Of a DNA stretch of 64,000 nt, positions 40,445-64,000 are shown one piece after another. Position 1 is the first letter of the stretch. Every line of letters starts with the position of its first letter. The notes beneath the pieces are model-generated. The model saw only the letters and a program-made list of their open reading frames with translations, was not told the DNA's origin and searched no databases. Origin of the DNA: Clostridia bacterium. Lineage in GTDB: Bacteria; Bacillota; Clostridia; Oscillospirales; CAG-272. The position numbers and the translations under genes were made by a program. The stretch covers positions 10,553 to 74,552 of the forward strand of contig CAAFLY010000061.1 of NCBI GenBank assembly GCA_900763885.1, read 5' to 3'.

Positions 40445-40577
40445 CGTGATGCGGCATGGGAATGTTTGCCTGTGTTTCAAAAAATAACAGCGACAAAAAT
40501 ACGCGGGAAAACGGGAACATTTTCGTTTTTCGCGCGTCTTAGTAATGAGTAGAAAACCGCACCTTGGAGAGAGTAAC

Positions 40578-41576
40578 ATGAATGCAGAAAAAACATGGGA
40601 TGTAAAGTCGGGAAAACCGGAGAAACGACCGCCTGAGGCGAAAGCGAAGAAAAAACGGGTGACTCCGGAGCCGGACAAGCCGAAAAAGCCGACCCGGCGA
40701 TTCGGCAAAACAAAGCGGGAGATCGCGGATATGTTCCGCACCATGCCGTTTATGATCCCGAGCGTCTGCGGCGTGCTGCTCTTTTTTATCCTGCCGTTTT
40801 TCGTCGTGATCTATTACGCCGTGATCGACAGCAATACGACCGCCAACTTCGTCGGGATCGAGAATTTCACGAAGCTCTTCCACAACGCGGCGTTCAAGCT
40901 GGCATTGAAGAACACGGGTACCTTCTCCCTGACCGCCGTACCGTTTGCCGTGGTGCTGTCGCTGGCACTGGCGGTGCTGCTGGACCGGGACCTGCCGATG
41001 AAAAGCATCTTCCGTACGATATTTCTTTCTCCCATGATCGTGCCTGCCGCGTCCATCATCTTAATCTGGCAGGTCATATTCGACTACAACGGACTGATCA
41101 ACGAGATCACCGCACTGTTTGGCGCGGCGCCGGTCGAATGGCTCAAATCCGACTACGGCTATCTCGTTGTGGTGCTGCTGTTTCTCTGGAAGAATATCGG
41201 CTACAACATGATCATGTTCATGTCCGCGCTGGCGGCGATCCCGAAGGACATCATCGAGGTCGCCATGCTCGACGGCTGCAGCCCGGTACAGCGGTTTTTC
41301 AAGATCAAGCTCCGGTATCTGGCCTCTACGATTACATATGTAACGATCATGTCGCTCATCAACTCATTCAAGGTGTTCCGCGAGGTGTTCCTGCTCGTAG
41401 GCAGCTATCCCTACGACTCCATGTACACCCTGCAGCACTTTATGAACAACACATTCAAAGGCTTTGACTACCAGAAGCTGTCCGCCGCCGCCATCGTGCT
41501 TTGTCTCATCATGATCGTGGTCATCGGCATTCTGCTCTGGACGGACAACCGCGTCGGGAGGGATATTGAAGAATGA
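40578..41576 (+). CDS. carbohydrate-type ABC transporter permease (MalF/BPD_transp_1-like) with basic N-terminal tail
   Basis: ATG at 40578 with a GGAGAGAG RBS. Six TM segments and the EAA-like loop (IEVAMLDGCSPVQRFFKIKL). The first ~55 aa are K/P/R-rich. Confidence 0.8.
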   Translation: MNAEKTWDVKSGKPEKRPPEAKAKKKRVTPEPDKPKKPTRRFGKTKREIADMFRTMPFMIPSVCGVLLFFILPFFVVIYYAVIDSNTTANFVGIENFTKLFHNAAFKLALKNTGTFSLTAVPFAVVLSLALAVLLDRDLPMKSIFRTIFLSPMIVPAASIILIWQVIFDYNGLINEITALFGAAPVEWLKSDYGYLVVVLLFLWKNIGYNMIMFMSALAAIPKDIIEVAMLDGCSPVQRFFKIKLRYLASTITYVTIMSLINSFKVFREVFLLVGSYPYDSMYTLQHFMNNTFKGFDYQKLSAAAIVLCLIMIVVIGILLWTDNRVGRDIEE

Positions 41577-42580
41577 CGAATACCGAAAAAAAGCCTCTCG
41601 CGCCGGTCGCAAACGTTTCTCCGCCGCCCAAAAGAAAGCCGACCAAGGAAATGCGCGCCGCACGCCGGGTGCATCGACGGAAAATTGCCAAGCGCGCGCT
41701 CTTATTGACGATCACGATGGTGATCCTGCTCTCGTTTGCGGTGCTGTTTTTGTTCCCGACCGTGTTCACCGTCACCAACTCCTTTATGTCCACCACGGAG
41801 ATCAGCGCGAACTACGGCAAGATCTTCTCCGGGCTTGGCGTATCGGGCAGCGGCTCGACCGGGCGGGTATACATCGGCGAGCGGGTGAACCTGCAGCTGA
41901 TCCCGGATAAGGTGAGCTTCTCGCAGTATTCGACGGTGCTGTTCAAAAGCCCGGAATACCTCATCAAATTCTGGAACTCCGTGTTCTACGTGCTGCCGAT
42001 CGTGCTGTTCCAGCTGGTCGTGGCGGCGGGCGCGTCGTATGCGTTTGCCCGCGTGGAGACGAAATTCCGCTCGATCTGCTTTTTTGCCTACATTATATTG
42101 ATGCTGATGCCGTATCAGGTCACGCTTGTGCCGAACTACATCGTGGACAACGCGCTCGGCATCCTCAACACGCGATGGGCGATCATCCTGCCCGGTATTT
42201 TCTCCCCGTTCAGCGTGTTCATTCTCACGAAATACATGCGCCGGATCCCGTCCGCCATGGTGGAAGCCGCGGAACTGGACGGGGCGGGCGAATTCGATAT
42301 TTTTCTGAAGATCTTCATGCCGCTGTCCCGACCGACCCTGTACTCGGTGGCGATTTTGGTATTCATCGACTACTGGAACATGGTGGAGCAGCCGCTGATC
42401 CTTTTGACCGACGCGGAGATGTATCCGCTCTCCGTCTTTCTGTCGCAGATCAACCAGGGGGACACCGGCATAGCGCTGGCGATCGCCGTTATCTATATGG
42501 TGCCGCCGGTCCTGCTCTTCCTCTACAGTGAGGATTACCTCATCGACGGTATCTCCTATTCCGCGTCCGTGAAGGGCTGA
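41573..42580 (+). CDS. carbohydrate-type ABC transporter permease (MalG-like) with basic N-terminal tail
   Basis: ATGA overlap with the upstream permease. EAA loop MVEAAELDGAGEFDIFLKIFMP. The N-terminal ~45 aa are P/K/R-rich. Confidence 0.8.
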   Translation: MTNTEKKPLAPVANVSPPPKRKPTKEMRAARRVHRRKIAKRALLLTITMVILLSFAVLFLFPTVFTVTNSFMSTTEISANYGKIFSGLGVSGSGSTGRVYIGERVNLQLIPDKVSFSQYSTVLFKSPEYLIKFWNSVFYVLPIVLFQLVVAAGASYAFARVETKFRSICFFAYIILMLMPYQVTLVPNYIVDNALGILNTRWAIILPGIFSPFSVFILTKYMRRIPSAMVEAAELDGAGEFDIFLKIFMPLSRPTLYSVAILVFIDYWNMVEQPLILLTDAEMYPLSVFLSQINQGDTGIALAIAVIYMVPPVLLFLYSEDYLIDGISYSASVKG

Positions 42581-42639
42581 GCGCGGCGGAAAAGCACGCA
42601 TCCAAAACCTATTTGATATACAAATTCGGAGGACAAATC

Positions 42640-45078
42640 ATGAACGGAACATCCCGCAGAGCATGGGTCAAGAACGCCGCGATCGTTTTTCTGATCGTAC
42701 TGCTGCTGCTCACCTTCTTTTCCAACACGATTCTGAACTATTCGCTGCCGGAGGTATCGGTGCAGTACGCAAGCTACGACAGCATCACGAACGCCATCAA
42801 GGTATCCGGCACCGTCAAGGCGAACGAGAGCTATGTCGTGACCTATGACGAAGCGGACAAGGACAGCAACACGACGGAGGTGGGTCAGACGCGCAAGATC
42901 GTGTCCGTATACGTCAAGCAGGGCACGGTGGTTGCCATCGGCGATCCCATCATCGCACTGAAGGGCGGCGCGACCAAGGAGCTGGAGGAAGCGGAAAAGA
43001 GCCTGCGCGATCTGGAAAAGCAGTATGCGCTGGACAAGATCACGGACACCATCAACGATCTGACCTCCGACAAGAGCAAAACGGAGAACGAGCGCACGCT
43101 GGCGGACTACTATAAGCAGCTTAGCAACAAAAAGGAGCTGTACAGCAAGCTCCTTGCCGGTACCGATCCGACCGAGACCCTGAAGGCGCAGAAGAAGGCG
43201 CAGGAAAAGGAAATCGCCGCGATCCAGAAGCAGATCGACGAGATCAACACGCGCATTACGGAGATCAAGGGCAAGATCAGCGCCGCCGAGGGCAATATCG
43301 TGGAGGATTACTCCGGCAAGTCCCTGGCCGAGCGGTACAACGCTGCCAAGCAGAACTATGAGGTGCTGCAGGGAGAATACGATACGCTGACGGCGCGGGT
43401 GAAGGAGCTGAAAGGCAATTCGGAGAATCTGTCTGAAGTTTCCGAGGAGGTCAAAAAGGCGTATGCGATCAGTCAAGAAATCGACAAGCTGAATGAGACG
43501 ATTGCTGATTTAAGGTTACAGTTAAAGAGACTTCTGGAGGACAATGGTATCAGTCAGGAAGAACTCAATGATAAACAAAAAGCGTACGAACGTGCAAAAG
43601 CCGAATATGACGCTTTTATTGCCAACACAAACAATTGTTACACATTGTATTTAGGCGAACTTGAGAATAGAGATAGACTACAACGGGCATATGATGAAGC
43701 TGTTGCGGAATTCGAACATCATAAAAATTGTGAAAATGAAAACGATCATAATCTGGATGAGTTAAATGAAAAAGTAATAAATGCCAAAGCTGATCTTGAC
43801 GGTGTATCGACAGAATACATCGAGAGGTACGAAAAGATAAATTCAGAATATGAAAGTGCTAAGAAAAAGTATGAGGATGCAAAAAATGGCTCATATTCAG
43901 ATAACACGTCTGTAAAAAGACAGATTGAGGATTTGAATAAACAAATTGCAACTGCTCAAGAACAGATTTCACAAGACTATGAAAAACTCAAAATTCTTGG
44001 AATGCCTAAGATCGATGACCTCACCGATTATTACATCAACAACCAAGACGAAAGCACGAAAAAGGAATACAACAAATTAAAAGCGCAGCTGGATGAGATC
44101 ACCACCGATTACGAAAAGGCGAAGACGGAGTATGAATCGCTCCAAAAGCAGATGAACAGCACCGGGACCATCTCGGACAACAAGGCGCTGCTTGAGACCT
44201 TTACACGCGACCTCCAGTCCTATACCGACAAAAAGGAAGCCGCGGACGAGATCCTGAAGGACATCGAGGAGGATCTCCAGGCCGCGCAGACCGAGAACAA
44301 CAAGAAGCCGGAGGAGGTCGAGAACGAGATCACCAAGCTGCAGAACGACATCACCACGCTCGAGAAGCAGATGAAGATCGACTCCGCCACCGAAAGCAAG
44401 AACGACGTGGAGTCGAAATACACCCGCGAGGATCAGGTCAAGCAGATCGAGGAGCTGAAGAAAAAGATCGAGACGATCAAGGCAGCCCCCGAGGAAACGC
44501 TCGTCACCGCCCCTATCGCCGGCAAGATCGTCTCCATCGATTTCGTACCGGGCAACTCCATCACAAGCGGCGCGGAGGTGGCGCGGATCGAGGTCGCGGA
44601 CAAGGGCTACATATGCGAGGTCTCCATGACCACCGAGCAGGCGCGCAAGGTACAGATCGGCGCGGAATGCTCCATCGTCAACTCGTGGTGGTACAGCGAC
44701 GTCAAGGCAAGCGTGTCCCAGATCCGCAGCGATCCGCAGAGCCAGGGACAGAAGAAGATCGTCGTGATCACCGTAACGGGCGACGTATCCGAGGGACAGA
44801 CCCTCAACTTCTCCATCGGCGACCGCAGCCAGTCCTACGAATCCGTCCTGCCGAAAACCGCGCTCCGTGAGGATAAGGAGGGCAAGTTCGTCCTTGTCGT
44901 GGAATCGAAGTCCACGCCGCTCGGTGTGCGCTATAAGGCGGTCCGCTACAATGTAGAGGTCGTCGCGTCCGACGATACCAAGTGCGCGGTATCCGGTCTC
45001 TACGGCAACGAATCCATCATCACCACCTCCACCTCCCCGATCAGCGACGGACAGCAGGTTCGTCTGGCGGAGAAGTAA
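42640..45078 (+). CDS. HlyD/membrane-fusion-protein-like adaptor with a very long coiled coil
   Basis: ATG at 42640 with a GGAGGA RBS and an N-terminal TM. Split lipoyl-like halves (VKQGTVVAIGDPIIAL near aa 100; LVTAPIAGKIVSIDFVPGNSITSG near aa 620) plus a C-terminal beta-barrel region. Roughly 510 heptad-rich residues lie between the halves. Confidence 0.7.
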   Translation: MNGTSRRAWVKNAAIVFLIVLLLLTFFSNTILNYSLPEVSVQYASYDSITNAIKVSGTVKANESYVVTYDEADKDSNTTEVGQTRKIVSVYVKQGTVVAIGDPIIALKGGATKELEEAEKSLRDLEKQYALDKITDTINDLTSDKSKTENERTLADYYKQLSNKKELYSKLLAGTDPTETLKAQKKAQEKEIAAIQKQIDEINTRITEIKGKISAAEGNIVEDYSGKSLAERYNAAKQNYEVLQGEYDTLTARVKELKGNSENLSEVSEEVKKAYAISQEIDKLNETIADLRLQLKRLLEDNGISQEELNDKQKAYERAKAEYDAFIANTNNCYTLYLGELENRDRLQRAYDEAVAEFEHHKNCENENDHNLDELNEKVINAKADLDGVSTEYIERYEKINSEYESAKKKYEDAKNGSYSDNTSVKRQIEDLNKQIATAQEQISQDYEKLKILGMPKIDDLTDYYINNQDESTKKEYNKLKAQLDEITTDYEKAKTEYESLQKQMNSTGTISDNKALLETFTRDLQSYTDKKEAADEILKDIEEDLQAAQTENNKKPEEVENEITKLQNDITTLEKQMKIDSATESKNDVESKYTREDQVKQIEELKKKIETIKAAPEETLVTAPIAGKIVSIDFVPGNSITSGAEVARIEVADKGYICEVSMTTEQARKVQIGAECSIVNSWWYSDVKASVSQIRSDPQSQGQKKIVVITVTGDVSEGQTLNFSIGDRSQSYESVLPKTALREDKEGKFVLVVESKSTPLGVRYKAVRYNVEVVASDDTKCAVSGLYGNESIITTSTSPISDGQQVRLAEK

Positions 45079-45096
45079 GAGCCGGGAGAGACGGAC

Positions 45097-46218
45097 ATGA
45101 AAATGAAAATCTCCCGAAAATGGATAACGGCGGCGGTGATCTGCGCGGCGGTGATGCTTGTATTCCTGGCGTTCGCCGGGATCTGCGAGATGATCTCGCG
45201 CGGCATGACGGCGGACATCAAGGAGCTGGACGCCGGAGCCCGCTGGACCAGCGACGGTTCACCCTACGCCACGATCGCCCTGTACACCGATACGGCGACG
45301 GCATTCGACCGCAGCACCGTCGAGAGATACGCCTACGCCATCACAAACGCGCTGCTCACCGCGTCCATCGATTCCCCGGAGGGCGGCAGCATATGGACCT
45401 ATTCGTACTACGGAGAGCAATCCACAAGCGTCACCGGCCCCAAGGGCTCCTCCGCGGCGGAGATGCAGTTTGTCGGCGGCAGCTACTTCACGTTCCATCC
45501 GCTGCGCTTCCTCTACGGCGCGCCGTTTTCCTACGATTCCACCCTGCCCGACGGCGTGGTGATCGACGAGGATTTGGCGTGGCGTGTGTTCGGTGCCATC
45601 GACGTGATCGGCATGGAGCTGACCTGGAACGGCCGCTCGTTCACGGTCTGCGGCATCGTACAAAAGGAACGGGACACCGAGGCATACAAGAAGGCGTACG
45701 GCAGCACCGGACGGATCTACATGAGCTACTACGGCTACGAAATGGCGGGCGGCGACACCCAGTCGATCACGGCGTTTGAGGCGACGATCCCGAACGCGGT
45801 CAAATCCTTTGCGATCAACCTCTTCAAGGGCGCCGTCACCGTCAACGAGGACACGATGGTGCTCTACGAAAACTCCGACCGCTACTCCTTTGCCAATCGG
45901 TTCAAGCGCATCAAAACGCTGCCGTATCAGGGAATGCGCACGGAGCGGATCATCTATCCGTATTACGAAAACGAGCTGTGCGTCCTCGACTTTGAAACCG
46001 GGATCTGGATGGTTGTCGAGGTCGTCATGCTCGGCATTGCCGCCGTCGGACTGATTGGCGCGATCTTCTGCGTGTCACACAGCGGATTCTCACCGACAAT
46101 ACTCGTGAAAAACGGGTTCCGGAAGGCGGAGGACGCGTTCGACAGGAAACGGGAAGCACGCTGGAAGAAGAAAAACAAAGGCAAAAATCTACCGCCCGAT
46201 CCGCTCGCAGGACTGTAG
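45097..46218 (+). CDS. bitopic membrane protein with a MacB-type periplasmic core domain, no FtsX domain
   Basis: N-terminal TM, then a region like the MacB_PCD consensus (VVIDEDLAWRVFGAIDVIGMELTWNGRSFTVCGIV), then one C-terminal TM and a basic tail. The four-helix FtsX bundle is absent. Confidence 0.5.
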   Translation: MKMKISRKWITAAVICAAVMLVFLAFAGICEMISRGMTADIKELDAGARWTSDGSPYATIALYTDTATAFDRSTVERYAYAITNALLTASIDSPEGGSIWTYSYYGEQSTSVTGPKGSSAAEMQFVGGSYFTFHPLRFLYGAPFSYDSTLPDGVVIDEDLAWRVFGAIDVIGMELTWNGRSFTVCGIVQKERDTEAYKKAYGSTGRIYMSYYGYEMAGGDTQSITAFEATIPNAVKSFAINLFKGAVTVNEDTMVLYENSDRYSFANRFKRIKTLPYQGMRTERIIYPYYENELCVLDFETGIWMVVEVVMLGIAAVGLIGAIFCVSHSGFSPTILVKNGFRKAEDAFDRKREARWKKKNKGKNLPPDPLAGL

Positions 46219-46343
46219 GGCACGGATTTGCATTGGGAACAGCAGGGAAATTTCACGTGTATAAGCGTATGCGCGGAACTTTCCTGCGTTTCCGTCGTCT
46301 AAGAGCATAGAAAGCAGACAGCACTCATAAGGAGGAAAATCCT

Positions 46344-48923
46344 ATGCAAAAAAAGAAAATACTCTCTCTGGCACTGGCAGCCGCGGCGATCATCGGTTCC
46401 ACCGGACTGGTCGGATGCGGGAAAAAGAACACCGGACCGGTCTATTCCCGCCGTACCAACGTCTATAAAACGGTCGAGCTGACCGGTCCCCAAAAGGCGC
46501 GCTGGATCGATCAGGCATTCTGCACCGGCGACTCTATGGTCATGCTCTACACGGAATACATCGACAATAGCGGGGACACTGCCTTTGCGGATGAAGTCGC
46601 GTCTGTCGCGAGGGTGAGCGAGGAGACCGCTGTCGAGGAAACCGAAGCCGCCACCGACGAGGTCCCCGCAGAGGACGGAGAGGTGACAGACGCAAACGGC
46701 GATGGGATCCCGGACGGCGAGGTGCCCGAGGCAAACAGCACGGATGACGCGCCTACGGAGGAAACCGCGAGCGAGGCGACGCTTGAACCGGAGACCATGC
46801 CGACCACCAAAAGGTGGCTCTATTCCGTCAAGCTCGACGGCTCCAGCTCCTCGGAGATTGAGCTGAACCTCGGCTTGAACGAAGACAACGGCTACTTCAA
46901 TTCGATCTTCAAGGGACCGGAGGGGACGATCTATATCTCTTATCAGAACTGGATCTACACCGACACCGAGTCCTACGCGCAGGTTATGCTCTACAACGTC
47001 GATTTCACAACGGGCGAAATGAAGGGCGATCCGATCGACCTGACCGCCGCCATAGAATCCGCGGGCTACAACAAGAGCGAAACGTATATCAACACCATCG
47101 ATTACAACGGCTCCGAGCTCCTGCTGACCATAGACGGCAACATCCTGCTGTGCGACGACAAGGGCAATTTCCAGAAAAAGCTCGAAACGGATGCAAGCTG
47201 GATCAGCACCATGCTCTACGATGAGAATGAGATATACTACATAACCTATGTGGACGGCAAGGGACAGCAGCTTTTCGCTGTCGATAAGACCACCGGGCAG
47301 GGATCGAACATCACCACCGATACGCTGAACAACGCGATCGCAAACGGCGGCAGTCTCATGGGCTACGCGAACGGCAAATTCTACTTCAATTCACAGACCG
47401 GCGTGACCACGTGGGAGCGCGCGACCGACACCGCGACGGAGATCCTCAACTACATCAACTCCGACATCGACCGCTCCGTGGTGAACAATCTGTATCTCCT
47501 CCCGGACGGCAGATTCGCATACTACGGTACCGACTACAGCAGCAAAACAAACAAAACCCTCATCGGCGTGCTGGAGAGGATCCCGGACGAGCAGATGCAG
47601 GATGAGGTCATCCTCACGCTTGCCTGTACCTACACGGACTACTATCTGCGCAAGCTCATCATCCGCTACAACAAGCAGAACACCGGCGTGCGCATCTCCG
47701 TCAAGGACTACTCAAGCTATAACAACGAAGGGAACAACTGGAACGGCGCGGCGACCCAGCTCGGCAACGACATCACCGTCGGCAACGTTCCGGACATTCT
47801 CGTGCTGGATTCCTCTCTCCCGGTCGAATCCTACTATAAGAAGGGCGTGTTCGCCGATCTGTATCCGTTCATCGACAGCGAGGAGAACGGCATCGACCGC
47901 TCGGATCTGATGGAGAATCTCCTGAAGGCATGCGAGCTCAACGGCAAGCTCTACTCCATCATCACCAGCTACTATTTCCAGACCCTTGTCGCAAAGTCCG
48001 ATTTTGTCGGCACGAAGCCCGGCTGGACGATTCGGGAAATGCTCGACGCCATCGCGAAAATGCCGGAGGGCATGGTGGCATTCAGCTACGATTTCGACCG
48101 CTCGTCCCTGCAGGATATGCTGCTCTCCGCCTGCATGGGTTCCTTCGTGAATTATGAAACGGGCGAAACGAGCTTCAACAGTCAGGATTTCATCGATCTC
48201 ATCGAATTCTTGAAATCCTGCCCGGAAAAGAGCATCCAGAACGCGTATTACGATAACATCGATTACGACAACTACGACGCCCAGGCGGAGCAGGAGTGGT
48301 ACAACGAGTACGAAATGCGCTTCTTCAAGAATAAGGCTCTCTTCATGAACGCCTACGTCAGCTCCTTTGACGCGTTTACGTACACCATGCAGCAGTTTGG
48401 CGGCAACGCGACGCTGATCGGCTATCCGACAACCGATGAAAACTCCAGCGGTGCGGTGGTCTATCCGAACATGGAGCTTGGCATCTGCGCGGCGTCCAAA
48501 AACACATCGAGCGCATGGCAGTTCCTCAAGTATCTCTTGACCGACGAGCAGTACGCGAAGGACAACTACTCCTTCACCATCTCGAAGAAGAACATGCAGG
48601 CGAAGCTCGACCAGACCAATCAGGACGCGGAGCAGAACGGCGGCAACGAATGGACGGATGAGGACTGGAAGTGGTACGAGGACAACTACAGCGAGGAATA
48701 TGTGAACTATCTGAAGAGTTCCCGGATGAAGTATACGCCGGAGCTGGGCCAGAAGGTCATGGACATCGTAAGCACCGCGACCACAGTCGTCCGCTATGAC
48801 AAAAAGCTCACCGAGATCATTAATGAGGAGCTGAGCAGCTTCTACGGCGGCACCAAATCCGCGGCGGACACAGCAGGCATTATCGACAGCCGTGCGAAGA
48901 TCTATATCTCCGAAAACAGCTGA
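46344..48923 (+). CDS. large lipoprotein: unknown ~400-aa N-terminal domain fused to a family-1 extracellular solute-binding domain
   Basis: AAGGAGGA RBS and lipobox LVGCGKK, with an acidic linker. From about aa 420 (VILTLACTYTDYYLRKLIIRYNKQNTGVRISV...PDILVLD...) it resembles sugar ABC solute-binding proteins. Confidence 0.65.
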   Translation: MQKKKILSLALAAAAIIGSTGLVGCGKKNTGPVYSRRTNVYKTVELTGPQKARWIDQAFCTGDSMVMLYTEYIDNSGDTAFADEVASVARVSEETAVEETEAATDEVPAEDGEVTDANGDGIPDGEVPEANSTDDAPTEETASEATLEPETMPTTKRWLYSVKLDGSSSSEIELNLGLNEDNGYFNSIFKGPEGTIYISYQNWIYTDTESYAQVMLYNVDFTTGEMKGDPIDLTAAIESAGYNKSETYINTIDYNGSELLLTIDGNILLCDDKGNFQKKLETDASWISTMLYDENEIYYITYVDGKGQQLFAVDKTTGQGSNITTDTLNNAIANGGSLMGYANGKFYFNSQTGVTTWERATDTATEILNYINSDIDRSVVNNLYLLPDGRFAYYGTDYSSKTNKTLIGVLERIPDEQMQDEVILTLACTYTDYYLRKLIIRYNKQNTGVRISVKDYSSYNNEGNNWNGAATQLGNDITVGNVPDILVLDSSLPVESYYKKGVFADLYPFIDSEENGIDRSDLMENLLKACELNGKLYSIITSYYFQTLVAKSDFVGTKPGWTIREMLDAIAKMPEGMVAFSYDFDRSSLQDMLLSACMGSFVNYETGETSFNSQDFIDLIEFLKSCPEKSIQNAYYDNIDYDNYDAQAEQEWYNEYEMRFFKNKALFMNAYVSSFDAFTYTMQQFGGNATLIGYPTTDENSSGAVVYPNMELGICAASKNTSSAWQFLKYLLTDEQYAKDNYSFTISKKNMQAKLDQTNQDAEQNGGNEWTDEDWKWYEDNYSEEYVNYLKSSRMKYTPELGQKVMDIVSTATTVVRYDKKLTEIINEELSSFYGGTKSAADTAGIIDSRAKIYISENS

Positions 48924-62625: not shown

Positions 62626-62677
62626 TATATAGGCAGTCGAGGAAAGACAGAAGCAAGCATCTGATGCTGTGCCGTAT

Positions 62678-62763
62678 GCCGGAGTGGCGGAATTGGCAGA
62701 CGCCCGGGACTTAAAATCCCGTGTAACGAGAGTTACGTACCGGTTCGAGCCCGGTTTCCGGCA
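62678..62763 (+). tRNA. tRNA-Leu (anticodon UAA)
   Basis: Hand-folded cloverleaf: acceptor GCCGGAG/TTCCGGC, anticodon arm CGGGA-CTTAAAA-TCCCG, long variable arm GTAAC..GTTAC, T arm ACCGG-TTCGAGC-CCGGT. CCA is not encoded. Confidence 0.85.
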
Positions 62764-62795
62764 TGTTTCCTTCCTTCCAACGCTGAAAAGAATAT

Positions 62796-62873
<78 letters not shown>

Positions 62874-62877
62874 CAAA

Positions 62878-62911
62878 AGATCAGCTAACCTATGTTAGCT
62901 GGTCTTTTTTT
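62878..62911 (+). terminator. intrinsic terminator after the tRNA operon
   Basis: AGATCAGCTAAC pairs with GTTAGCTGGTCT (12 bp, one G-T) and is followed by T7. Confidence 0.85.
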
Positions 62912-63238
62912 GTCCTTATACGGCATAGGGAAACAGATCCGCAATGCGCTTTGGTTCGGTTTCATTCGTTTTTGTTTTCGCGAAATGAGCGGCGAGAGGT
63001 GTATGGGGGAGGAATATTTGCGAAAAATGATGGAGACGACGTACGTCGGCAAACGTCGTCTTGTGGGGGAATGGTTGCGAATGAACGGAAAGGATGTATT
63101 CAATCAGACAATCCCCCATACAGACAAAATCACCCCCAAAACCACCACAAAAAAACGAACAAAATATTAGATAGCCCGAGCGGCATCATCCGTGCCAAAT
63201 AAGGCTTCAATTTAAGTTTCCAGAAAGGATGTTTTCCA

Positions 63239-63604
63239 ATGCGAAAATATCAAATGATCCATCCGGTCGGACGTGAAATGGTAGACTTACGCACTTTTGA
63301 AGCTGAAATCAAAAATGCAGTAGCTGAGATCATGCCATTTGCGAAGGTAGAGGTAGCCGCAAACTACTATACCGTAGAACCGTCTCCTTACCATAATCAG
63401 GCAATCAAGATAGGCCAGATACTTGGAAAAATCGCGACATTAAGACAATATTCCATTCAGATTACCAGAACCTTTTGCAGCGTAGAGGTGGTGGAAGAGG
63501 TGGAGCAACAAACAACAGACGCTTCGACAGCAACCATAGAATCCAAACCGATTCAGACGCAGAAAGGCGGTGGTGGTCGTGGGAGAAAAAAGAAAGTACA
63601 TTGA
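63239..63604 (+). CDS. hypothetical protein (121 aa) of the integrated element
   Basis: AAAGGA RBS, AT-rich codon usage, C-terminal GGGGRGRKKKVH tail. Overlaps the next ORF by about 35 nt. Confidence 0.45.
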   Translation: MRKYQMIHPVGREMVDLRTFEAEIKNAVAEIMPFAKVEVAANYYTVEPSPYHNQAIKIGQILGKIATLRQYSIQITRTFCSVEVVEEVEQQTTDASTATIESKPIQTQKGGGGRGRKKKVH

Positions 63605-63779
63605 TATAAACGAGATGATACGCGACTATCTTCCCATGAGCCGAAAGAAGGCAAGAAAGTTTGTCCTGTCGTACCTCAATACCAAACGAATTGGAAATAA
63701 GATTTACGTGGATAGGGAAGAACTGGAGCAAATCCTTGCGAATCCGGATATTGAAAAGTATCCGCTGTATCAAAACTAA
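63570..63779 (+). CDS. excisionase-like small HTH DNA-binding protein
   Basis: YIDINEMIRDYLPMSRKKARKFVLSYLNTKRIGNKIYVDREELEQIL has the layout of MerR/Xis-type excisionases. The start is ambiguous (GTGs at 63570-63579, or ATG at 63615). Confidence 0.5.
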   Translation: MVVVGEKRKYIDINEMIRDYLPMSRKKARKFVLSYLNTKRIGNKIYVDREELEQILANPDIEKYPLYQN

Positions 63780-63781
63780 GC

Positions 63782-63826
63782 AAAAAAAAGACAGCATCTG
63801 CCAATACCGGTGGATGCTGTCTTTTA
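63782..63826. terminator. bidirectional terminator
   Basis: A perfect 10-bp stem, AGACAGCATC / GATGCTGTCT, flanked by A8 and T4, between convergent genes. Confidence 0.8.
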
Positions 63827-63829
63827 CTC

Positions 63830-64000
63830 TTACTGGAAGATGAGCTCGTCGATTTTCTCACCGGCAGCCTTGTTCATCTCCGGTACAGTGTGCGCGTATA
63901 CGTTCAGAGTCATCGCAATATCAGCGTGTCCGAGCCGTTCCTGCATAACCTTTGGACTCACGCCAGCTTGCAGCATAACAGAGGTGTAGCTGTGACGCAA
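63830..64000 (-). CDS. tyrosine recombinase/integrase, C-terminal 56 aa (5' end outside window)
   Basis: The reverse translation reads LRHSYTSVMLQAGVSPKVMQERLGHADIAMTLNVYAHTVPEMNKAAGEKIDELIFQ*. This carries box II of phage-type integrases (LRHS...LGH...Y), with the catalytic Tyr in NVYAH. Confidence 0.85.
   Translation of the reverse strand: MRHSYTSVMLQAGVSPKVMQERLGHADIAMTLNVYAHTVPEMNKAAGEKIDELIFQ

What the first reader, a model, noticed from the sequence alone, without database searches (positions are those of the whole stretch)
43470..44085. In-frame low-GC patch at the centre of the MFP coiled coil
Nucleotide composition switches abruptly inside a continuous ORF. Hand counts of the 60-nt lines at 43501, 43561 and 43621 give 23, 22 and 21 G+C. 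The flanking coiled-coil lines at 43201 and 44221 give 32 each. Amino-acid composition stays similar (K/E/N/D/L-rich), but synonymous usage flips from AAG/GAG/CTG/GAC to AAA/GAA/TTA/GAT. The patch midpoint (about 43780) nearly coincides with the midpoint of the helical region (about 43730), which is the predicted hairpin tip. That is where an insertion lengthens both arms equally without breaking the fold. This pattern suggests a recombination-derived mosaic or a horizontally acquired tip module rather than drift.
Basis: seen in the sequence. Interest (0 to 1): 0.6.

Follow-up and report, generated by a model that had tools for sequence, protein, structure and literature searches.

The report
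Hypervariable AT-rich tip cassette in adaptor
The low-GC patch is real, but it is one of at least eleven swappable versions of the far tip of a very long membrane-anchored rod protein in a gut Clostridia bacterium, and every version is AT-rich, as expected for a surface-exposed target kept diverse by selection rather than a one-off foreign insertion.

Summary
Observation confirmed. Inside the 812/821-aa HlyD-family adaptor gene (42613/42640-45078), GC3 falls from 0.82 to 0.28 over nt 43501-44007. This is the only such outlier among 52 genes in the window.

Interpretation partly right. The gene is a recombination mosaic, but the patch is not a private insertion or a recent import. Conspecific orthologues are 97-100% nt identical across the rest of the roughly 8-kb locus. 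In the same slot they carry at least 11 unrelated cassette types (15-47% aa, 40-55% nt identity) with recurrent breakpoints (43413-43416/43504 and 43921-43981/44099).

All eight orthologous alleles whose DNA I obtained are equally AT-rich (GC3 0.22-0.37). Cassette and backbone phylogenies disagree. Within a type dN/dS is 0.03-0.13, and substitutions are at compositional equilibrium, so there is no amelioration. GC3 falls in three steps: 0.86 in segments shared by all alleles, 0.59 in class-only segments, 0.28 in type-specific segments.

AlphaFold puts the cassette at the hairpin tip. Distant relatives in other gut species show the same hypervariable, AT-rich centre.

Best reading: a long-lived balanced polymorphism of an exposed tip, shuffled by homologous recombination. 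The selecting agent (phage, antibody or other) and the cause of the AT-richness are inferred, not shown.

The parts
42640..45078 (+). HlyD-family membrane fusion (adaptor) protein gene. It is 812 aa from ATG 42640, the start used by public gene calls; the ORF is 821 aa from TTG 42613.
   Evidence: Pfam HlyD_3 scores 32.2 bits (cut-off 22.2) and Biotin_lipoyl 23.7 (cut-off 22.1). Foldseek matches EmrA, BesA, MacA, AcrA and Spr0693 at probability 1.0. P0001 is the 812-aa product.
42655..42738 (+). N-terminal transmembrane anchor (residues 6-33 of the 812-aa protein). The rest of the protein is predicted to lie outside the membrane.
   Evidence: AlphaFold2 helix 6-33 over the hydrophobic stretch AAIVFLIVLLLLTFF, preceded by SRR and K. 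The topology is inferred.
42973..43413 (+). Conserved proximal N-arm of the coiled-coil hairpin, GC3 about 0.86.
   Evidence: Helices start at residue 112. The segment is 97-100% nt identical in all conspecific orthologues. The tier shared by all alleles has GC3 0.86.
43414..44098 (+). Outer limits of the variable cassette. Homology to class B alleles ends at 43413-43416 (43477 for one allele) and resumes at 44099.
   Evidence: blastn of the window against L007, L009, L011, L015 and L001.
43505..43980 (+). Type-specific hypervariable core, GC3 0.28. Homology to other class A alleles ends at 43504 and resumes at 43921, 43971 or 43981.
   Evidence: blastn against L005, L006 and L012. The GC3 changepoint segment is 43501-44007. 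Type-specific residues are 297-458.
43726..43752 (+). Predicted hairpin turn (residues 363-371, KNCENENDH region).
   Evidence: This is the central non-helical break in the AlphaFold2 model. Helix breaks on the two arms mirror about residues 360-366.
44099..44481 (+). Conserved proximal C-arm of the coiled coil, GC3 about 0.86.
45097..46218 (+). Downstream partner candidate: a 373-aa protein with a MacB-like periplasmic core domain between two hydrophobic helices. No FtsX domain was detected.
   Evidence: Pfam MacB_PCD scores 39 bits (cut-off 27). The adjacency is conserved in all orthologous loci.
40545..42580 (+). Two CUT1-type sugar ABC permease genes immediately upstream on the same strand.
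   Evidence: Pfam BPD_transp_1. NCBIfam shows UgpA/E-, MalF/G- and GlcT/U-like hits, all below the equivalog cut-offs.
46344..48923 (+). An 859-aa lipoprotein gene closing the conserved gene block.
   Evidence: The lipobox-like N-terminus reads LVGCGKK. Synteny is conserved. An orthologue has a faint SBP_bac_1 hit.

Best explanation
**What it is.** The patch is one allele of a hypervariable, AT-rich cassette. The cassette encodes the distal third of the alpha-helical hairpin (both arms plus the turn) of a giant HlyD-family adaptor. The adaptor is anchored by one N-terminal helix in the membrane of a gut Clostridia bacterium.

**Shown.**
- Strains that are about 98% identical across the rest of the operon carry at least 11 mutually unrelated cassette types in exactly this slot.
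- The types fall into two architectures: a long all-helical form, as in this window, and a shorter form with a four-stranded beta mini-domain at the tip.
- Types are moved between backbones by homologous recombination in the conserved arms.
- Each type is conserved by purifying selection.
- The allele lineages are much older than the backbones that carry them.
- Every type is AT-rich at synonymous sites and sits at compositional equilibrium.

**Inferred.**
- With about 250 residues per arm (roughly 37 nm if extended), the hairpin can cross a Gram-positive wall and expose its tip.
- The tip is then kept diverse by negative frequency-dependent selection from something that recognises it. Phages are the most likely agent; host antibody or competitors are alternatives.
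- The AT-richness is a by-product. A segment that can only recombine with the few strains sharing its type escapes the recombination-linked GC-favouring force (GC-biased gene conversion). That force keeps GC3 near 0.85 in the rest of the same gene, so the cassette settles at the AT-rich mutational equilibrium.
For: **Mosaic structure.** Flank aa identity is 97-100% against 15-47% in the patch, with length differences of 47-63 aa. At the nucleotide level the figures are 97-100% against 40-55%. Breakpoints recur across independent alleles at 43504, 43413-43416 and 44099. Eleven types were found among 66 close orthologues.

**Shuffling between backbones.**
- P0011 vs P0054: flank 100%, cassette 22%.
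- P0021 vs P0064: cassette 93.8% nt and dS 0.15, against flank 83.9% and dS 0.83.

**Old alleles under constraint.** P0020 vs P0021 have cassette dS 0.87 against flank dS 0.16, with cassette dN only 0.029. Within-type dN/dS is 0.03-0.13.

**AT-richness is general.** GC3 is 0.22-0.37 in all eight orthologous alleles against 0.79-0.84 outside.

**Compositional equilibrium.** Third-position changes in the cassette are 25 GC>AT against 28 AT>GC. In the flanks they are 127 against 32.

**Graded GC3.** Segments shared by all alleles have GC3 0.86, class-only segments 0.59 and type-specific segments 0.28. The gradient repeats in 7 further alleles.

**Family-wide pattern.** In 50 distant relatives from 21 lineages, the aa-matched central GC3 deficit averages -0.154 and is negative in 80% (Wilcoxon p = 3e-8). 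Other species also show flanks at 95-99% with centres at 22-40%. Lineages with invariant centres show little or no dip.

**Tip position and fold.**

**Precedent from literature.** The roughly 160-aa variable region of PIP_EF sets phage tropism (PMC4999554). YueB has a wall-spanning ectodomain (PMC9863714). Recombination-linked GC bias in bacteria is described in PMC4450053.
Against: - No direct evidence shows that the tip is surface-exposed or that any phage or antibody binds it.
- The monoderm envelope is inferred only from homologues that sources name as Clostridia or Ruminococcaceae.
- The AlphaFold model is of moderate quality (pLDDT 73.6, pTM 0.30).
- The per-site rate differences between cassette and flank that would support weaker GC-favouring fixation are not significant (Fisher p = 0.07 and 0.14).
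- The link between hypervariability and the GC3 dip across lineages is qualitative and rests on few lineages.
- A horizontally circulating, intrinsically AT-rich cassette pool would give much the same picture.
- Silent donor copies elsewhere in the genome were not excluded.
Confidence: 0.6

Rival explanations
1. One-off horizontal acquisition. This strain, or its recent ancestor, imported a tip module from a low-GC donor by recombination, and the low GC is the donor's signature.
For: There is an abrupt GC3 shift with donor-like codon choices such as AGA, TTA, ATT and GCT. Boundaries are sharp. The window's own type is rare: one 90% cluster with 4 member sequences.
Against: - All eight other alleles sequenced are equally AT-rich in the same slot.
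- No donor was found in any protein or DNA collection searched.
- There is no amelioration signal.
- A cassette type persisted at low GC through a backbone divergence of dS 0.44-0.83.
- Distant relatives in hosts with GC3 near 0.5 have centres at 0.2, lower than any backbone sampled.
Confidence: 0.05
2. Programmed intragenomic variation. The expressed cassette is replaced from silent copies elsewhere in the chromosome (pilE/pilS-like gene conversion) or is diversified by a retroelement.
For: Discrete cassette types with fixed boundaries are what a silent-copy system would produce. Only 64 kb of this genome could be inspected.
Against: - No second copy of any of the 11 cassette types, and no copy of the flanks, exists in the window.
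- There are no boundary repeats or inverted repeats beyond chance.
- Alleles differ wholesale in sequence and length, not at adenine-templated positions.
- The P0021-P0064 cassette sharing across diverged backbones is explained by inter-strain transfer.
Confidence: 0.07
3. Local selection for AT-rich or rare codons. The hairpin turn region is kept AT-rich for a reason of its own, such as slowed translation to help the two arms pair or reduced mRNA structure. Hypervariability would then be a separate matter.
For: The dip is centred on the turn in many lineages whatever the host GC. Expression-linked codon selection cannot differ within one mRNA, so some local factor is required.
Against: - Lineages with invariant centres show little or no dip although they have the same hairpin.
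- GC3 tracks how widely a segment is shared among alleles (0.86, 0.59, 0.28) and not distance from the turn as such.
- Class B alleles put a beta domain at the turn and are equally AT-rich.
Confidence: 0.1
4. Relaxed constraint. A monoderm has no outer-membrane partner for the tip, so the tip drifts freely and decays toward AT.
For: Gram-negative adaptors conserve the tip for TolC docking (general knowledge; review PMC8277102). No such partner is expected here.
Against: - In-situ drift cannot give 40-55% nt identity next to 98-100% flanks in the same strains.
- Within-type dN/dS of 0.03-0.13 shows strong constraint.
- Types are discrete and are shared across backbones.
Confidence: 0.03
5. Assembly chimera joining reads from two organisms.
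For: The window comes from a metagenome-derived sequence. The three identical public copies (100% over 4-8 kb) may derive from one sample.
Against: - Three different assembly pipelines give the same junctions.
- The reading frame is continuous.
- Dozens of orthologues from other samples have the same architecture and the same breakpoints.
Confidence: 0.01

Closest known systems
Periplasmic adaptor / membrane fusion proteins (HlyD, EmrA, MacA, AcrA; the Gram-positive members YknX and Spr0693)
   Same: The domain order is the same: membrane anchor, split lipoyl domain, alpha-hairpin, beta-barrel. This is supported by Pfam HlyD_3 and Biotin_lipoyl hits and by Foldseek matches to EmrA, BesA, MacA and Spr0693. 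A MacB-type periplasmic core domain protein is encoded next door.
   Different: - The hairpin has about 250 residues per arm. By my recollection of the solved adaptors it is several times longer than theirs.
- The tip is hypervariable. In Gram-negatives it is the conserved TolC-docking end.
- The neighbour lacks an FtsX domain and no ABC ATPase is adjacent.
- The gene sits inside a sugar-importer-like operon.
PIP_EF of Enterococcus faecalis and its relatives YueB (Bacillus subtilis) and Pip (Lactococcus)
   Same: These are membrane-anchored proteins of Gram-positives with a large extracellular part. [quoted passage not shown] Swapping that region changes phage tropism (PMC4999554). The YueB ectodomain is long enough to span the wall (PMC9863714).
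   Different: The protein family is unrelated. No phage is known for the protein in this window. I did not examine the synonymous composition of the PIP_EF variable region.
Flagellin (FliC) and coiled-coil surface proteins with hypervariable ends (streptococcal M protein, PspA)
   Same: From general knowledge: conserved helical segments build the shaft, an exposed segment is hypervariable, alleles are exchanged by recombination in the conserved parts, and diversity is attributed to immune or phage pressure.
   Different: Here the variable part is the turn of an antiparallel hairpin in a transport adaptor. It is not a filament surface domain or a free N-terminus.
O-antigen and capsule loci
   Same: From general knowledge: low-GC, highly polymorphic cassettes are flanked by conserved DNA and replaced by homologous recombination in the flanks. 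The polymorphism is long-lived.
   Different: Those are multi-gene cassettes. This one is an in-frame cassette of 420-690 bp within a single gene.

Membership tests
HlyD / membrane fusion (periplasmic adaptor) protein family | HlyD-type beta-barrel and barrel-sandwich (lipoyl) domains detectable by profile | tested here: met
   Pfam HlyD_3 scores 32.2 bits against a cut-off of 22.2 (residues 631-725). Biotin_lipoyl scores 23.7 against 22.1 (residues 45-115). NCBIfam RND_mfp scores 58.8 bits, below its cut-off of 94.9.
HlyD / membrane fusion (periplasmic adaptor) protein family | Antiparallel alpha-helical hairpin inserted in the lipoyl domain, with overall fold like solved adaptors | tested here: met
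   AlphaFold2 gives helices 112-614 with a central break at 363-371 and mirrored breaks on the two arms. Foldseek matches EmrA (4tko, E 1e-6, 683 columns), BesA, MacA, AcrA and Spr0693 at probability 1.0.
HlyD / membrane fusion (periplasmic adaptor) protein family | Encoded next to its inner-membrane transporter (ABC, RND or MFS) | tested here: inconclusive
   The downstream gene has a MacB_PCD domain but no detectable FtsX domain or ATPase. The upstream genes are importer-type BPD_transp_1 permeases.
HlyD / membrane fusion (periplasmic adaptor) protein family | Hexameric assembly forming a duct | not testable with these tools
   Only monomer models were made.
Diversity-generating retroelement target | A template repeat near-identical to the variable region, a reverse transcriptase nearby, and variation confined to adenine-templated positions | tested here: not met
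   The window holds no second copy of the region and no significant repeats. Alleles differ in length and at all positions.
Silent-cassette gene conversion (pilE/pilS type) | Promoterless partial copies of the variable region elsewhere in the genome | tested here: inconclusive
   tblastn with all 11 cassette types found none in the 64-kb window. The rest of the genome is not available.
Phage receptor with strain-variable specificity region (PIP_EF type) | Conserved ends with a central hypervariable extracellular segment that differs between conspecific strains | tested here: met
   The extracellular location is inferred from the single N-terminal anchor.
Phage receptor with strain-variable specificity region (PIP_EF type) | Required for infection by a phage, with the variable region determining tropism | not testable with these tools
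   This needs phage isolation and cassette-swap experiments.

The most novel reading that the evidence does not exclude
In many gut Clostridia, a giant adaptor hairpin crosses the cell wall, and its tip is the strain-specific contact point for phages or other binders. The tip is held as an ancient multi-allele polymorphism.

The cassette and its flanks share one gene, one mRNA, one strand and one amino-acid composition. They differ only in how widely they can recombine. The three-step GC3 gradient (0.86, 0.59, 0.28) would therefore be a natural experiment. It would show that recombination-linked biased gene conversion, and not translational selection, holds bacterial GC3 high.
Probability: 0.3. 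Interest if true: 0.8.

Novelty: new variant of a known kind. Interest (0 to 1): 0.62.

Why it matters
**A possible strain-typing and phage-tropism locus.** Membrane fusion proteins are regarded as conserved plumbing whose hairpin tip docks on an outer-membrane channel. Here, in bacteria that lack such a channel, the tip is the most polymorphic piece of an otherwise near-identical 8-kb locus. The same holds in several other gut species. That marks the tip as a likely exposed recognition site. It gives a concrete candidate locus for strain typing, phage host range or antibody targeting in abundant but poorly studied gut Clostridia.

**A within-gene test of GC evolution.** The graded synonymous AT-richness offers an unusually clean contrast. 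Expression, strand and amino-acid content are all held constant. This bears on the long-running question of what maintains high GC at silent sites in bacteria.

Tried and rejected
- **Patch-only protein searches.** The word-index search returned nothing and did not even recover the parent protein. The exhaustive HMMER scan of 1.84 billion representatives gave one weak generic coiled-coil hit at E 1e-4. No donor could be named.
- **Mobile-element collections.** tblastn against phage records, blastn against plasmids and a pattern scan of IMG/VR all found nothing.
- **Genome scan.** The genome-contig scan yielded only one related locus. DNA of orthologues therefore had to come from exact-protein look-ups.
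- **A mistake, corrected.** In one search I picked the downstream lipoprotein gene in L001 and wrongly saw no dip. One search corrected this, and the dip is present.
- **Site-specific or programmed mechanisms.** No boundary repeats, no silent copies, no Rfam family, promoter-like sites at chance level and no alternative ORF in the patch.
- **Pfam on isolated cassettes of six types.** Nothing reached a gathering cut-off.
- **Independent-sample support for the exact allele.** The three public copies are 100% identical over 4-8 kb and may be one sample assembled three ways. I count them as assembler-independent only.
- **Rate-level test of weaker GC-favouring fixation in the cassette.** The direction is as predicted but it is not significant.
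Full report
**1. The observation**

The ORF 42613-45078 (+) is continuous. Public gene calls start it at ATG 42640, giving 812 aa.

- In 150-nt windows, G+C falls from about 0.58 to 0.33 between roughly 43400 and 44100, then returns.
- The change lies almost wholly at third codon positions. A two-changepoint likelihood fit gives codons 297-465 (nt 43501-44007), with GC3 0.28 inside and 0.82 outside and a log-likelihood gain of 84.8.
- Synonymous choices flip within amino acids. Lys AAG/AAA goes from 57/12 to 4/12, and Ile ATC/ATT from 46/2 to 2/6. Amino-acid composition stays like that of the flanking coiled coil.
- Across 52 inferred genes, 100-codon GC3 averages 0.74 (sd 0.09). This gene's minimum of 0.25 is the only extreme value, and the next lowest is 0.43.

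**2. What the gene is**

- Pfam finds HlyD_3 and Biotin_lipoyl above their cut-offs.
- NCBIfam RND_mfp matches the C-terminal part, below its cut-off.
- The AlphaFold2 model (pLDDT 73.6) has an N-terminal helix at 6-33, a split beta domain, helices from 112 to 614 and a C-terminal beta-barrel.
- Foldseek matches EmrA, BesA, MacA, AcrA and the pneumococcal Spr0693. It also matches long antiparallel coiled coils such as Rad50, MukB and SMC.
- The central non-helical break is at residues 363-371 (nt 43726-43752). Helix breaks on the two arms mirror about residues 360-366. This is the pattern expected of a hairpin whose turn lies there.

With about 250 residues per arm and the usual rise of about 0.15 nm per residue, an extended hairpin would be about 37 nm long. 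This is my inference.

Sources name the homologues as Clostridia or Ruminococcaceae adaptors. The samples are human gut metagenomes.

**3. Orthologues change the picture**

A protein search returned 669 relatives. I aligned the best 120 and scored identity by segment. Proteins that are 97-100% identical to the window in the anchor, both proximal arms and the barrel are only 15-47% identical in the patch. They differ in length there by up to 63 residues.

At the DNA level, conspecific loci are collinear at about 98% over 4-8 kb. The exception is this one stretch, which drops to 40-55%, meaning it is unrelated.

Breakpoints recur:
- Three different alleles lose homology at 43504 and regain it at 43921, 43971 or 43981.
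- Five others lose it at 43413-43416 (43477 in one) and all regain it at 44099.

Clustering the central segment of 66 close orthologues at 70% identity gives 11 types in two deep classes.
- **Class A** includes the window. It is long and all-helical.
- **Class B** is 50-60 residues shorter. In an AlphaFold2 model of P0027 it carries a four-stranded beta mini-domain at the turn (residues 322-367, pLDDT 83-89).

No cassette matches any Pfam family above cut-off.

**4. The low GC belongs to the slot, not to this strain**

I obtained DNA for eight other alleles of seven further cassette types. Every one has the same dip: GC3 0.22-0.37 in the centre against 0.79-0.84 outside. My first reading of L001 used the wrong gene and was corrected.

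It is not met. But neither is the idea of a private import.

**5. Recombination, age and constraint**

Cassette and backbone histories disagree.
- P0011 and P0054 have identical flanks but 22% identical cassettes.
- P0021 and P0064 have flanks at 83.9% nt (dS 0.83) but cassettes at 93.8% (dS 0.15). This indicates a recent transfer between diverged backbones.
- P0020 and P0021 have flank dS 0.16 but cassette dS 0.87 with dN only 0.029. The same protein type has been kept while silent sites saturated.
- Within-type dN/dS is 0.03-0.13, as low as or lower than in the flanks.

The cassettes are therefore functional, constrained, older than the backbones, and exchanged by recombination in the conserved arms. 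In-situ drift and relaxed constraint are excluded.

**6. Is the low GC fading?**

I took four sequences of one type and polarised singleton changes. Third positions in the cassette show 25 GC>AT against 28 AT>GC, which is equilibrium at an implied GC3 of 0.43. The flanks show 127 against 32.

There is no amelioration, so the AT-richness is a steady state. Per-site rates differ in the direction expected for a weaker GC-favouring force in the cassette, but not significantly (p = 0.07 and 0.14).

**7. A graded pattern**

Within the coiled coil of the window gene, I sorted codons by how widely their sequence is shared among alleles:

| Tier | Codons | GC3 |
|---|---|---|
| Shared by all alleles | 271 | 0.86 |
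| Shared only within class A | 70 | 0.59 |
| Type-specific | 162 | 0.28 |

The same three steps appear in seven other alleles: 0.81-0.85, 0.43-0.62 and 0.23-0.40. The class-only DNA is common to the class A alleles, so class B is the independent replicate.

**8. The phenomenon is family-wide**

- Among more distant relatives in the first search, pairs with 95-100% identical flanks have centres at 21-61% identity.
- A metagenome scan gave 50 full-length relatives at 28-48% identity, falling into 21 lineages.
- I controlled for amino-acid content by using each gene's own coiled-coil arms. The centre is then below expectation in 80% of genes, with a mean deficit of -0.154 (Wilcoxon p = 3e-8). It is more than 0.15 below in 44%.
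- Host backbones range from GC3 0.48 to 0.91. Centres fall as low as 0.17-0.21, below any backbone sampled.
- Lineages that show the hypervariable pattern have the dip. Examples are L082 vs L091 (flank 98%, centre 25%), L044 vs L047 and L020 vs L021.
- Lineages whose sampled centres are invariant have little or no dip. These are the L067 group, the L080 group, L038/L046 and L056/L058.
- This association is qualitative and rests on few lineages.

**9. Mechanism**

*Shown:* an allelic, in-frame cassette at the hairpin tip is exchanged by homologous recombination. Many old types are kept in the population. Each is under purifying selection. All are AT-rich at equilibrium.

*Inferred:*
- The tip is exposed beyond the wall and is under negative frequency-dependent selection by something that recognises it.
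- The nearest functional precedent is PIP_EF of Enterococcus faecalis. Its central variable region of about 160 aa, flanked by conserved ends, is necessary and sufficient for phage tropism (PMC4999554). YueB has a wall-spanning ectodomain (PMC9863714).
- For the AT-richness, expression-linked codon selection cannot differ within one mRNA. A mixed-host pool cannot explain centres that are more AT-rich than any host.
- The graded pattern fits the idea that GC3 is held up by a recombination-linked bias (PMC4450053). That bias would act less on segments that can pair only with same-type partners.
- A generally AT-rich mobile pool, or local selection for AT-rich codons, remain possible.

**10. Rivals tested**

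- **Assembly chimera.** The exact sequence occurs in three public assemblies made by different pipelines. They are 100% identical over 4-8 kb and may derive from one sample. The stronger argument is that dozens of orthologues from other samples share the architecture and breakpoints.
- **Programmed variation.** No silent copies of any type exist in the window. There are no boundary repeats and no Rfam hit. The rest of the genome is untested.
- **Foreign donor.** No match was found in phages, plasmids, IMG/VR or two very large protein sets.
- **Hidden feature in the patch.** Promoter-like sites are at chance level and there is no alternative ORF.

**11. Verdict**

It is a hypervariable, AT-rich allelic cassette in a protein family where this had not, to my knowledge and in the searches I ran, been described. 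The general kind is known: an exposed variable segment flanked by conserved recombination arms. Its occurrence at the tip of a giant Gram-positive adaptor hairpin is new, and so is the clean within-gene GC3 gradient.

Noticed in passing
window 40545-48923: The adaptor and a MacB_PCD-only two-helix protein lie between two sugar-importer-type ABC permease genes (UgpA/E- and MalF/G-like) and an 859-aa lipoprotein gene. No FtsX permease or ATPase is adjacent. The gene order is kept in homologues at 57% and 48% identity. An efflux-type adaptor embedded in an importer-like operon is unexplained.
   Followed up: partly
window 46564-46801: The acidic, low-complexity N-terminal linker of the lipoprotein fails to align in the more diverged orthologous loci (L012, L001), yet it is GC-rich (about 0.67). 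Rapid divergence in this operon therefore does not by itself bring low GC.
   Followed up: partly
window 62677-64000: tRNA-Leu and tRNA-Met genes (62677-62873) are followed by a low-GC stretch (0.42-0.45). It contains an excisionase-like small ORF (63570-63779) and the C-terminal end of a tyrosine-integrase-like ORF on the minus strand (63830-64000). This looks like the edge of an integrated mobile element running off the window.
   Followed up: no
P0027 residues 303-369 (locus L011); class B alleles in general: Alternative alleles of the same slot carry a small four-stranded beta domain at the hairpin turn in place of the all-helical tip seen in the window. It has no Pfam match. The two architectures would give rods of different reach.
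   Followed up: partly
window 43726-43752 and the equivalent positions of P0002, P0005 and P0007: All four class A cassette types, although otherwise 25-47% identical, keep a cysteine in or next to the predicted turn (HHKNCENEN, HHLNYCPNREGH, EHGCSVNG, LISLCEEQPGY). Several class B types also keep a Cys in an I-E/D-D-x-C motif. The possible role (disulfide between subunits, metal binding) is unknown.
   Followed up: no
window 42556-43476, minus strand: A 306-aa antisense shadow ORF, typical of GC-rich coding DNA, runs through the conserved N-arm and ends where the AT-rich cassette begins. It is not a gene.
   Followed up: no
tool behaviour: The word-index protein search with the 169-aa patch alone returned no hit at E 1e-3, not even the parent protein P0001, which contains it at 100%. 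Negative results from that tool for short, compositionally biased queries should not be trusted.
   Followed up: partly
loci L002, L003, L004: Three public records (ENA ERZ28596108, NCBI GCA_902475975.1, Logan SRR3993050) are 100% identical to the window over 4-8 kb. They are probably one sample assembled by three pipelines. The window's cassette type was seen nowhere else among the 120 best homologues.
   Followed up: yes
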